DNA of 64,000 nt from Oscillospiraceae bacterium (GTDB lineage: Bacteria; Bacillota; Clostridia; Oscillospirales; Oscillospiraceae). A model generated the notes under the pieces. That model saw nothing but the letters and a program-made list of their open reading frames with translations, was not told where the DNA came from and did no database searches. This document shows, in pieces, positions 39,389-40,739 of this stretch. The translations under genes were made by a program, and so were the position numbers. Each line of letters starts with the position of its first letter. The first letter of the stretch is position 1. The stretch spans positions 14,917-78,916 of the forward strand of contig JAGAMC010000025.1 of assembly GCA_017624915.1 (NCBI GenBank), given 5' to 3'.

Positions 39389-40453
39389 ATGCCAGATACT
39401 TCTATTGTGGTCAAGGCAACAGACAAATACTCTGACGTTATAAAGCGTATGGCCGAGGTTACAAAGTCTTTTGGCAAGGATGTGGACGCGCTGGAGGGTG
39501 GACTGCGTCAACTCAGCCGAAGCAAGGCGAGTATCAAGCTTGATCTGAGTAAGGCAAAAGCCGAGCTTAAAGCGGCGGAGAAAGCATGTGACGGCACAGA
39601 CACCGCAATGAAACGGCTTTCGGCGGCACAGATCAATGTGGATCATATTACCCGGAATCTGAAGGTAGTGACCAATACTGCAAAGGAAACCGAGAAGCAA
39701 ATCTCCAAGATAAAGAAGGAGACGGGGGTGGAGTCAGGGGGGGATTCGGGCATTACGGGATTAAAAGGCGGTAATGCCTTGAAACAGTATGGGAAAATGT
39801 TGTCCACAGCCGGAGGACAGCTTGTTGACTACTATTTGGGGAGTGCATTAGGCGACACAGAGGGCGCTGCTGTATCTTCGGTCTTAAGCAACACAATTTC
39901 CGGTGTAATGGTCGGCCTTTCCACAGGAACCGGTTTGGTGGGAGCGCTGGTTGGAGGAACAGTAGGTCTGATTTCAGGAGGAATCTCTGCTGCTACAGCG
40001 AGTGCGGCGAAGAAAGACGACTTCTTCAAGGACTACTACGGCAAGCTGTACGAAGGACAGCTTTCCGCCGGGGCGGAGAGCCTGACGGCAGGCTCGGCCA
40101 CGGCGGGCAGCCGGGAGCAGCGCTACAGGGAACTTGAAAAGAAGGTGGGAGGGGAGCGAGCCAAAGACTACCTGAAGCAGATCGAGGAGATAGCCGCGGG
40201 GAGCACCTACGGCTATGACGAGCTGCTGGACTATGTGCTGAGCAGCGAGGATCCGGCGGAGGCCCTGAAAGAGCGGCGGAAAGCCGCGGCGGGATCGGCA
40301 CCGAGCACCTATGAGGAGAAGAAGGCCGAACTGGCGGATGTGCGCACCGGCGTGGAGGAGGGCTACGGCACCGGGTACAACGAGGAGCGCAAGTCGGCGC
40401 TGCAGGCTATTACATTAGCATTTGTGAGGGTTCGAATCCCGCGCGTCTTCTGA
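39389..40453 (+). pseudogene. Phage tape measure protein, truncated fragment
   Basis: AAGGAGGGG RBS; coiled N-terminus and Gly/Ala-rich hydrophobic middle. The last about 15 codons read into tRNA-derived repeat sequence; far shorter than a typical TMP. Confidence 0.7.
40421..40439 (+). repeat. Inverted 19-nt copy of the tRNA-Gln T-arm site
   Basis: tttgtgagggttcgaatcc is the reverse complement of 40680-40698. Confidence 0.9.
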
Positions 40454-40463
40454 TAGAAAAAGA

Positions 40464-40497
40464 AAAACCTCAAGGCTGTTTCCAACCTCGAGATTTT
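40464..40497 (-). terminator. Terminator-like hairpin after the duplicated tRNA 3' end
   Basis: Minus strand aaaatctcgagg...ccttgaggtttttcttttt. Confidence 0.6.
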
Positions 40498-40521
40498 TGG
40501 CAGCGGGAGAAGGATTCGAAC
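40498..40521 (-). repeat. Direct duplicate of the tRNA-Gln 3' end (24 nt, att-like)
   Basis: GTTCGAATCCTTCTCCCGCTGCCA is identical to 40666-40689 on the minus strand. Confidence 0.95.
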
Positions 40522-40614
40522 GGCTGACGCCGTTCGGCGAACCGGATTTTAATTTGTCCCGCGCTCCTGTCCTGCGGACAGAACCGCGCGGATGACATTG
40601 TGAGGGTTCGAATC
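40522..40614. mobile_element. Putative small hairpin-rich element between tRNA-Gln and its duplicated 3' end
   Basis: Body with hairpins at 40528-40539 and 40559-40591, ending in a 17-nt inverted tRNA copy (40598-40614). Mobility is inferred. Confidence 0.55.
40598..40614 (+). repeat. Inverted 17-nt copy of the tRNA-Gln T-arm site
   Basis: ttgtgagggttcgaatc is the reverse complement of 40681-40697. Confidence 0.9.
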
Positions 40615-40630
40615 TTCAAATCAAAAAAAG

Positions 40631-40664
40631 AAAACCCACAACACCGTCAAGTGTTGTGGGTTTT
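40631..40664 (-). terminator. Intrinsic terminator after tRNA-Gln
   Basis: aaaacccacaacac / gtgttgtgggtttt stem, then tctttttt on the minus strand. Confidence 0.8.
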
Positions 40665-40665
40665 G

Positions 40666-40739
40666 TGGCAGCGGGAGAAGGATTCGAACCCTCACAAACA
40701 GAGTCAGAGTCTGTCGTGCTACCCTTACACAATCCCGCT
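40666..40739 (-). tRNA. tRNA-Gln (anticodon CTG)
   Basis: Cloverleaf: AGCGGGA/TCCCGCT acceptor, GTGT/GCAC D-stem, ACAGA-CTCTGAC-TCTGT anticodon arm, GAGGG-TTCGAAT-CCTTC T-arm, encoded CCA. Confidence 0.95.

What the first reader, a model, noticed from the sequence alone, without database searches (positions are those of the whole stretch)
40421..40739. Tandem tRNA-Gln 3'-end units, each with its own terminator and an inverted T-arm copy
Seen on the minus strand: full tRNA, terminator A, GATTCGAACCCTCACAA, 76-nt body, 24-nt tRNA 3' end, a different terminator B, GGATTCGAACCCTCACAAA, then phage sequence. Spacers and terminators differ between units, so this is not a simple tandem duplication. 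Established: the duplicate begins at the T-loop, a known crossover position for tRNA-targeting tyrosine integrases. Inference: at least two successive insertions at the same site, each bringing an antisense copy of the T-arm. Read-through RNA could pair with the tRNA T-arm and affect processing.
Basis: partly seen in the sequence, partly recalled or inferred. Interest (0 to 1): 0.72.

Follow-up and report, generated by a model that had tools for sequence, protein, structure and literature searches.

The report
Tiny hairpin insertion element in tRNA-Gln
The odd repeats behind this tRNA-Gln gene are one whole and one cut-down copy of a roughly 145-base, gene-less insertion element that carries a spare tRNA end and a mirror-image copy of its landing site. 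The same element type sits at many other tRNA, tmRNA and protein-gene ends in gut Oscillospiraceae, and I found no description of it in the papers I searched.

Summary
The intact tRNA-Gln(CTG), an exact 23/24-nt second copy of its 3' end, two unrelated terminators and two exact inverted copies of the T-arm 5' half are all present and far beyond chance.

This is an insertion at the T-loop that brought a replacement 3' end. The inserted DNA is not an integrase scar specific to T arms. It is a copy of a small non-coding element, here called X. X consists of a replacement gene end with its terminator, a 13-20 nt reverse-complement copy of the sequence spanning the insertion junction, a conserved three-tier hairpin core, a 3' hairpin, and then the displaced native gene end.

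The same core occurs in at least 117 stretches of Oscillospiraceae/Eubacteriales genomes. Its targets include tRNA-Pro, Arg, Lys, Gln and Ser, tmRNA and protein-gene ends. In each case the mirror segment matches the local target. In this genome, 8 of 23 isolated short duplications have the same layout, with other body families.

Unit B is the native 3' end and native terminator, followed by a 20-nt stub of a second X copy fused to a truncated phage tape-measure gene. The best reading is a non-autonomous element whose mirror arm and duplicated target start fold into a mimic of the target site. The enzyme that moves it is unknown. The idea that an antisense T-arm RNA regulates the tRNA is not supported.

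The parts
40773..40800 (-). tRNA-Gln promoter (TTGACA-16-TATAAT)
   Evidence: 12/12 consensus match. The upstream region is conserved in congeners.
40666..40739 (-). Intact tRNA-Gln(CTG). Its last 24 nt (40666-40689) are direct repeat 1, the gene end now in use.
   Evidence: ARAGORN; Rfam tRNA 59.5 bits; repeat.
40623..40664 (-). Terminator A, between the tRNA and the element body. It is unrelated to terminator B and to the terminators of relatives.
   Evidence: Terminator scan; comparison of loci.
40598..40617 (-). Mirror segment 1 (GAAGATTCGAACCCTCACAA). It is the reverse complement of tRNA positions -8 to +12 around the start of the repeat and directly abuts the core.
   Evidence: 17 nt exact; 18/20 identities with gap 0 to the core.
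40555..40597 (-). X core: a three-tier hairpin (outer stem, internal loops, variable inner stem)
   Evidence: Conserved in G008, G273 and G154. Covariance model R1 gives 109 bits. Fold -21.8 kcal/mol, with inner stems that covary across 14 copies.
40517..40554 (-). Linker with a direct GGTTCG (40538-40543) that pairs with the mirror segment, followed by the 3' hairpin CGAACGGC-GTCA-GCCGTTCG (40517-40536). The last four bases of that hairpin are the start of repeat 2.
   Evidence: CGAACC/GGTTCG pairing invariant in 4 copies; sequence.
40498..40521 (-). Direct repeat 2: the displaced native tRNA-Gln 3' end
   Evidence: Exact 24-nt repeat.
40457..40498 (-). Terminator B, the native tRNA-Gln terminator
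   Evidence: 89% identical to the terminator that directly follows tRNA-Gln at the empty site of G020; terminator scan.
40421..40440 (-). Mirror segment 2: stub of a second X copy. It keeps ATG of the core, then breaks into phage DNA.
   Evidence: 19 nt exact reverse complement of the tRNA. G154 reads the same through CACAAATGTCATCC.
38563..40420 (+). Prophage remnant: tail assembly chaperone 38563-38937 and a truncated tape-measure gene. The ORF 39389-40453 reads its last roughly 11 codons out of the element stub.
   Evidence: PF08890 and phrog_33570, profile positions 86-314 of 686. Relatives have open frames of 572-839 aa at the homologous gene.
10759..11036 (+). A second element of the same architecture in this window, at the 3' end of smc. 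It has a 56+15-nt repeat, the mirror segment CTGCTCCTGCATG (10839-10851) and a Z-family body.
   Evidence: The site is empty in G020, G005, G024 and G016.

Best explanation
The array is tRNA-Gln carrying one complete copy and one stub of X, a small, gene-less, non-autonomous insertion element.

Shown:
- X is a conserved unit found at the same place in tRNA-Gln in other genera and absent from most congeners.
- It always has the order: target up to the junction | replacement target end (plus terminator) | mirror copy of the junction sequence | conserved hairpin core | 3' hairpin | displaced native target end.
- The same core serves many different targets, with the mirror segment changed to match each one.

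Inferred:
- The mirror segment, together with the start of the duplicated target on the other side of the core, folds into a long hairpin whose stem imitates the double-stranded target site. This resembles the folded attP of the CTX phage or an integron attC site.
- A circular or single-stranded form of the element (target end, terminator, mirror arm, core, 3' hairpin) recombines with the chromosomal site at the junction. The gene stays whole because the element supplies a new end.
- The recombinase acts in trans and is unidentified.
- Here, unit A is the complete element. Unit B is the native 3' end and native terminator, followed by the 5' stub of an older or second copy that was later fused to a decaying prophage.

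The confidence of 0.55 is a blend. That this is a copy of a recurrent small insertion element is about 0.85. The folded target-mimic mechanism is about 0.4.
For: - Same element, same site, other genera: G008, G273 (flanked by a perfect 60-nt repeat), G154, G112 and G102. The site is empty in 10 congeners.
- Genome-wide layout: 8 of 23 isolated short duplications in G000 carry a perfect 12-17-nt reverse-complement copy spanning the junction. At most 1 of 300 shuffles per locus and strand gave a match of 10 nt or more. Targets are tRNA-Arg, tRNA-Met (anticodon loop), tmRNA, two tRNA-like ends, smc and another protein gene.
- One core, many targets: the covariance model and an exact-pattern scan find the core in 11 of 401 family genomes and in 117 public stretches. 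Targets are tRNA-Pro (GGG/CGG/TGG), Arg (CCG/ACG/CCT), Lys, Gln, Ser, tmRNA, a small basic protein gene, a thiolase and an RNase H-like 5' end.
- Flanking repeats and mirror segments: 58 of 81 copies have a flanking repeat of at least 18 nt. 39 of those have a mirror segment that spans the repeat start and abuts the core. In seven inspected copies identity was 84-90% and the gap to the core was at most about 2 nt.
- The mirror arm is inherited with the element. Two tRNA-Pro copies in different genera share the same mismatch to the identical host tRNA. L106 has a perfect repeat of about 80 nt but an imperfect mirror arm.
- Structure: the core has conserved internal loops, and at least 6 different inner stems all pair perfectly. 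The long-range CGAACC/GGTTCG pairing is invariant.
- In coding targets the two repeat copies differ only synonymously. Terminator A is unrelated to terminator B. Both fit ends brought in from another lineage.
- The folded-attP precedent is described in PMC4246890 and PMC3442271.
Against: - No recombinase is linked to the element, and no copy with cargo genes was found in 80 loci.
- Known folded-site systems use one conserved site (dif, or the attC R boxes). Here the sites are as varied as the targets, so the source of specificity is unexplained.
- Perfect repeats of 60-100 nt that include host-specific terminators could instead be duplications made at insertion.
- In the Y and Z families the body end does not imitate the left side of the junction, so the free form would fold only partly.
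- Two different Z variants use the same smc junction with mirror segments in different registers. This does not fit a strict guide.
- There are no reads, no RNA data and no experiment.
- All genomes are MAGs.
Confidence: 0.55

Rival explanations
1. Classical serial integration by tRNA-targeting tyrosine integrases. In this view each unit is the attL/attR scar, or a cis-mobilisable mini-element, left by an island or prophage, and the inverted copy is an integrase-binding site in the P' arm.
For: - Crossover positions (T-loop, anticodon loop) and restoration of the gene by an element-borne 3' end are the hallmark of such elements (PMC4383910).
- G000 has 7 tyrosine recombinases.
- tRNA-Gln is an integrase hot spot in congeners: integrase genes converge on it in L005, L006 and L008.
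- A prophage remnant adjoins unit B.
Against: - Real integrase-bearing elements at tRNA-Gln and tRNA-Leu in these genomes have direct arm repeats and no mirror copy.
- The same conserved core is found at more than 10 unrelated target sequences, including protein genes.
- No copy contains an integrase or any cargo.
- Conserved loops with covarying stems point to a folded strand, not to double-stranded protein sites.
- The phage remnant is a truncated tail gene, not an att-proximal end.
Confidence: 0.13
2. An IS200/IS605-like (PATE/REP-like) single-strand element moved by a Y1 HUH transposase. In this view the mirror segment is an extended left 'guide' lying 5' of the hairpin foot that base-pairs with the left cleavage and target site. 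The stretch between the cleavage site and the guide is a captured copy of the target end.
For: - The geometry matches IS608. There, the cleavage site lies in the flank 19 nt 5' of the hairpin and is read by a guide directly 5' of the hairpin foot, and changing the guide retargets insertion (PMC3201880).
- The mirror segment abuts the core foot in all inspected copies.
- The Y and Z families have conserved right ends.
- G000 encodes one RAYT-like Y1 protein.
Against: - Y1_Tnp is present in only 26 of 61 genus genomes. It is absent from genomes rich in Z copies.
- Among X-positive genomes 4 of 12 have it, against 6 of 20 X-negative genomes.
- The G000 gene is not flanked by such hairpins.
- IS200/IS605 insertion gives no gain or loss of DNA.
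Confidence: 0.1
3. A copy-choice or fold-back replication event creates the direct and inverted target copies at the moment a small hairpin lands. In this view only the core is mobile, and the mirror segment and repeats are by-products.
For: - Many repeats are perfect over 60-100 nt and include host-specific terminators.
- The tRNA end, terminator and mirror copy together form long quasi-palindromes.
- The mirror register differs between two smc insertions.
Against: - Mirror segments carry lineage-shared mismatches to the host target while the repeats are perfect.
- Terminator A differs from terminator B, and the repeat copies in coding targets differ only synonymously. Both argue for imported ends.
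- The arrangement is stereotyped across hundreds of copies.
Confidence: 0.1
4. The inverted copies are functional RNA: either an antisense or tRNA-like small RNA on the + strand, or the relic of a convergent tRNA-Gln gene.
For: - In G008 the inverted copy extends through an acceptor-like TCTCTCCTGTCCA.
- The core is a conserved structure.
Against: - No Rfam family matches.
- There is no promoter or + strand terminator for it.
- Nothing upstream of the T arm resembles a tRNA.
- The same construct occurs with non-tRNA mirror segments at protein genes.
Confidence: 0.05

Closest known systems
CTX phage-type IMEX elements and integron attC sites (recombination sites formed by folding a single strand)
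   Same: - Two inverted copies of the site, separated by tens of bases, can fold into a duplex that imitates the chromosomal target.
- After integration, the direct hybrid sites flank the element and one inverted copy lies near one end.
- The element has no recombinase of its own and depends on an enzyme supplied in trans (PMC4246890, PMC3442271).
   Different: - There is no dif-like or GTTRRRY-type consensus. The stem sequence changes with each target.
- The element is only 90-230 nt and carries a replacement end of the target gene.
- No Xer or IntI involvement has been shown.
tRNA/tmRNA-targeting integrative elements (islands, prophages, cis-mobilisable elements)
   Same: - Insertion in the T-loop or anticodon loop.
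- The gene is regenerated by element DNA and the displaced 3' fragment marks the far end.
- Tandem arrays form at one tRNA (PMC4383910).
   Different: - No integrase and no cargo.
- A mirror copy of the junction is present.
- One conserved core serves many unrelated targets, including protein-gene ends.
IS200/IS605 family, PATEs and REP/RAYT systems
   Same: - Subterminal hairpins.
- A target-complementary segment directly 5' of the hairpin foot.
- Small non-autonomous derivatives that are abundant in intergenic DNA (PMC3201880, PMC3333891).
   Different: - The guide is 13-20 nt, not 4 nt.
- Long flanking repeats are present.
- Y1 transposase genes do not co-occur with the elements.
Rickettsia palindromic elements and other small bacterial repeats (MITE-like)
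   Same: Short hairpin repeats found behind genes, inside RNA genes (RNase P P12, next to tmRNA) and inside ORFs (PMC2229807). That RPEs sit inside protein and RNA genes is from my own knowledge.
   Different: Those elements lack duplicated target ends and junction mirror copies. MITEs have fixed terminal inverted repeats and short fixed target duplications.

Membership tests
tRNA-targeting tyrosine-integrase integrative elements | Insertion within a tRNA/tmRNA gene that regenerates the gene and displaces a 3' fragment as a direct repeat | tested here: met
   Intact tRNA plus a 24-nt displaced copy. The same holds at tRNA-Arg, tRNA-Met and tmRNA.
tRNA-targeting tyrosine-integrase integrative elements | A cognate integrase gene inside or beside the element | tested here: not met
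   The element is about 145 nt with no ORF. No cargo-bearing copies were found among 80 loci. Integrases in G000 lie elsewhere.
tRNA-targeting tyrosine-integrase integrative elements | One element family is tied to one att sequence, with specificity read by the protein | tested here: not met
   The same core occurs at more than 10 targets.
Folded single-strand recombination sites (CTX attP(+), integron attC) | An inverted pair of site copies able to fold into a duplex mimic of the partner site | tested here: met
   The mirror segment pairs with both junction copies. Stems are 8-20 bp.
Folded single-strand recombination sites (CTX attP(+), integron attC) | A conserved site consensus recognised by XerCD or IntI | tested here: not met
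   Junction sequences share no motif.
Folded single-strand recombination sites (CTX attP(+), integron attC) | A single-stranded intermediate and exchange of one strand pair | not testable with these tools
   Needs biochemistry or read-level data.
IS200/IS605 / PATE / REP-RAYT | Subterminal hairpins, with a guide 5' of the hairpin foot that is complementary to the cleavage and target site in the flank | tested here: met
   The guide-like segment is 13-20 nt, against 4 nt in IS608 (PMC3201880).
IS200/IS605 / PATE / REP-RAYT | Presence of a Y1 HUH transposase in genomes that hold the elements | tested here: not met
   26 of 61 genus genomes have it. 4 of 12 X-positive and 6 of 20 X-negative genomes have it.
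IS200/IS605 / PATE / REP-RAYT | Insertion without gain or loss of target DNA | tested here: not met
   Flanking repeats are 18-106 nt.
MITEs (DDE-mobilised) | Terminal inverted repeats of the element itself and a target duplication of short, fixed length | tested here: not met
   The repeats vary from 17 to 106 nt, and the 'inverted repeat' is target sequence.

The most novel reading that the evidence does not exclude
X and its sister families may be a class of reprogrammable, sequence-guided insertion elements. A 13-20-nt arm next to a conserved hairpin handle would direct a trans-acting, possibly housekeeping, enzyme to any chosen gene end by base pairing. The element would carry a replacement gene end so that essential genes survive the insertion. 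This would be a DNA- or RNA-guided integration system with no element-encoded protein.
Probability: 0.25. Interest if true: 0.92.

Novelty: new variant of a known kind. Interest (0 to 1): 0.74.

Why it matters
If the elements really move, they are among the smallest site-specific insertion elements seen. They appear to choose targets through a short arm that is complementary to the target, next to a constant folded handle. They also protect essential tRNA, tmRNA and protein genes by bringing a spare gene end.

That would add a target-matching principle to bacterial mobile DNA that needs no element-encoded protein. It would also explain many short 'gene-end duplications' in gut Firmicutes genomes, and perhaps in the ultrasmall bacteria and archaea flagged in earlier scan notes. 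Finally, it would give a compact natural template for programmable insertion.

Such inserts also matter for annotation. They create false ORF extensions, tRNA fragments and apparent tandem att sites.

Tried and rejected
- Integrase reading of ORF 39389-40453: rejected. It is a truncated tape-measure protein.
- Phage database search with that protein: no match.
- Rfam on X, on the G008 locus, on the smc insert and on the tRNA-Arg locus: only the tRNAs were found.
- Convergent tRNA or tmRNA relic: ARAGORN finds none, and nothing 5' of the T arm is tRNA-like.
- Reverse transcriptase (PF00078): none in G000, so retro-insertion is not supported.
- Y1 transposase as the mover: no co-occurrence. The RAYT-like gene beside the smc insert in G014 lies outside the repeats.
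- Search for autonomous or cargo-bearing X copies: none found.
- BLAST-level search for X in 301 family genomes was too insensitive. A covariance model and a pattern scan did better.
- Inversion at the palindromic TTCGAA of the T-loop as the source of the inverted copies: considered because the whole tRNA block is inverted relative to upp compared with G008 and G020. It does not explain the conserved body or the non-tRNA cases.
- Literature: six full-text searches ran and one was rejected by the tool. They found no description of such elements.

Full report
**1. What is there**

On the minus strand the window holds the following, in order (coordinates):

| Feature | Coordinates | Evidence |
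|---|---|---|
| Perfect sigma-70 promoter | 40773-40800 | |
| Intact tRNA-Gln(CTG) | 40666-40739 | |
| Terminator A | about 40623-40664 | |
| Mirror segment 1, GAAGATTCGAACCCTCACAA | 40598-40617 | |
| 43-nt hairpin core | 40555-40597 | |
| Linker and small 3' hairpin | 40517-40554 | |
| Exact 24-nt copy of the tRNA 3' end | 40498-40521 | |
| Terminator B | about 40457-40498 | |
| Second mirror segment | 40421-40440 | |
| Phage-derived DNA | up to 40420 | |

The repeats are exact and absent from shuffled sequence. Both terminators are called on the tRNA strand only.

**2. Surroundings**

- ORF 39389-40453 is not an integrase. It is the N-terminal half of a tape-measure protein (phrog_33570, profile positions 86-314 of 686). 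An XkdN-like chaperone precedes it. Its last roughly 11 codons are read out of mirror segment 2. Relatives have open frames of 572-839 aa at the homologous gene.
- Everything to the left of 38560 is host DNA: rqcH, tsaE, tsaB and upp. The phage is therefore a 1.9-kb relic.
- In G008 and G020 the order is tsaB, upp, tRNA-Gln on one strand. Here the whole tRNA block is inverted relative to upp, and the relic sits at one breakpoint.
- Terminator B is 89% identical to the terminator that follows tRNA-Gln directly in G020. The second 3' end plus terminator B is therefore the displaced native gene end.
- Everything from the T-loop of the intact tRNA through the 3' hairpin is inserted DNA.

**3. The insert is a conserved element**

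- The mirror segment plus body recurs behind tRNA-Gln in G008, in G273 and in G154. In G273 it is flanked by a perfect 60-nt repeat of the tRNA end plus terminator.
- Ten congeners have the tRNA and a terminator only.
- A covariance model built from four copies found more copies in 11 of 401 family genomes. These lie behind tRNA-Gln, tRNA-Pro (GGG and TGG), tRNA-Lys, another tRNA, and the 3' end of a thiolase gene.
- An exact-pattern scan of one genome per species found the core in 117 stretches. Nearly all are Oscillospiraceae/Eubacteriales gut and rumen MAGs.
- Targets in that scan also include tRNA-Arg (three isoacceptors), tRNA-Ser and tmRNA. They further include the 3' end of a small basic protein gene, seen in at least ten of the loci printed, and the 5' end of an RNase H-like gene.
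- Of 81 copies, 58 have a flanking repeat of at least 18 nt. Of those, 39 have a segment of at least 12 matching bases that is the reverse complement of the sequence spanning the repeat start and lies against the core. A decoy junction 30 nt upstream still scored in 7 cases, so this is not a clean control.
- In seven copies at five targets inspected by hand, the segment is 13-20 nt long and 84-90% complementary. It lies within about 2 nt of the core.
- The core folds the same way in 14 copies. It has conserved internal loops (ACTCGCTC and AACCGCTC), and at least six different inner stems all pair.

**4. The layout is general in this genome**

- A scan for short dispersed repeats in G000 gave 23 isolated loci. 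Eight carry a perfect 12-17-nt mirror copy of the left junction, always on the side away from the gene. At most 1 of 300 shuffles per locus and strand gave a match of 10 nt or more.
- The eight are tRNA-Arg, tRNA-Gln, tRNA-Met (anticodon loop), tmRNA, two tRNA-like ends, smc (in this window, 10759-11036) and another protein gene.
- Their bodies belong to other repeat families, here called Y and Z.
- Z has dozens of copies per genome across the genus. Conserved copies include one abutting the 5' end of tmRNA, one inside P12 of RNase P RNA, and one at the pgk 3' end.
- The smc site is empty in G020, G005, G024 and G016, and the empty site lacks the mirror segment.
- The 'inverted T-arm copy' is therefore a copy of whatever spans the junction, not a T-arm device.

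**5. Mechanism**

The mirror segment pairs with the left junction. It pairs equally well with the start of the displaced repeat on the far side of the core. As a result, mirror arm, core and repeat start form one long hairpin whose stem reproduces the target site as a duplex. In X, the bases just after the core even imitate the left side of the junction.

This is the logic of the folded attP of the CTX phage and of integron attC sites. In those systems a single strand folds to imitate the partner site and a trans-acting recombinase exchanges one strand pair (PMC4246890, PMC3442271). I infer that the mobile unit is target end, terminator, mirror arm, core and 3' hairpin, as a circle or single strand.

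Three observations support carried-in, heritable arms and ends:
- Two tRNA-Pro copies in different genera share the same mismatch to the identical host tRNA.
- L106 has a perfect repeat of about 80 nt but an imperfect arm.
- Terminator A is unrelated to terminator B, and the repeat copies in smc differ only synonymously.

Three points weigh against this reading:
- No recombinase is linked, and no cargo-bearing copy exists.
- Sites share no consensus.
- Long perfect repeats could be made at insertion.

The IS608-type reading, with a guide 5' of the hairpin foot (PMC3201880), fits the geometry. However, Y1 genes do not co-occur with the elements. No reverse transcriptase is present.

**6. The two units**

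- Unit A is a complete element.
- Unit B is the native end followed by a 20-nt stub of another copy.
- The same full-plus-truncated pattern occurs at tRNA-Arg (C4), in G119 and perhaps at C41. A clean three-repeat tandem occurs in L161.
- Repeated insertion at one site is therefore likely. Here the older copy was lost in the rearrangement that also truncated the prophage.

**7. Novelty and limits**

- Six full-text literature searches ran and one was rejected by the tool. They found no description of these elements.
- Earlier scan notes describe look-alike modules in Patescibacteria and DPANN. Those notes are unchecked leads.
- All genomes are MAGs.
- Read-level and RNA evidence was unavailable.
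- My confidence that this is a copy of a recurrent small insertion element is about 0.85. My confidence in the folded target-mimic mechanism is about 0.4.

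Noticed in passing
window 10759-11036: The smc 3' end is duplicated (56 identical nt, then 15 nt with only synonymous differences) around a Z-family hairpin body, with the mirror segment CTGCTCCTGCATG. The same junction is used by a different Z variant in G014. The site is empty in G020, G005, G024 and G016.
   Followed up: yes
G000 C48:8395-8710 (outside the window); L054, L055, L061: Z-family copies (three in tandem in G000) end exactly at the mature 5' end of tmRNA (GCGACGACGA|GGGGGCG). 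The position is conserved in four species, so Z may be part of the tmRNA precursor leader.
   Followed up: partly
G000 C16:135899-136025 (outside the window); G008 L056: A Z-family copy sits inside helix P12 of the RNase P RNA gene.
   Followed up: partly
window 38555-40840: The whole tRNA-Gln block (promoter to second mirror stub) is inverted relative to upp when compared with G008 and G020. The 1.9-kb prophage relic (chaperone plus truncated tape-measure gene) lies at one breakpoint.
   Followed up: partly
G000 C13:280-444 and C11:68-472: Duplications of tRNA 5' parts. The first 22 nt of tRNA-Lys are repeated 143 nt upstream across a hairpin body. A 203-nt unit containing the tRNA-Pro 5' half is repeated in tandem. 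This suggests a mirror-image class of elements that replace gene starts.
   Followed up: no
G000 C42:12931-12947: A decayed X-type stub (CAGATTTGAACCCTCACAATATCCCCCGG), with the tRNA-Gln-type mirror segment, lies about 125 nt downstream of tRNA-Tyr.
   Followed up: no
G000 C22:38711-39193; G014 L137: A single RAYT-like Y1 (HUH) gene is translationally coupled to the upstream gene. In G014 its homologue starts right after the displaced smc end, next to a Z insert but outside the repeats.
   Followed up: partly
G000 C38:19738-19860 and about 31400-32750: Two copies of a tRNA-Ser(CGA)-like 3' part lie about 12 kb apart with a tyrosine integrase beside one of them. This looks like an ordinary integrative element. 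One copy also carries a small Y-type insert.
   Followed up: no
window 40546-40573 (-): A weak promoter-like match (AGGACA-16-TAAAAT, 9/12) inside the X core points at the displaced tRNA 3' end.
   Followed up: no
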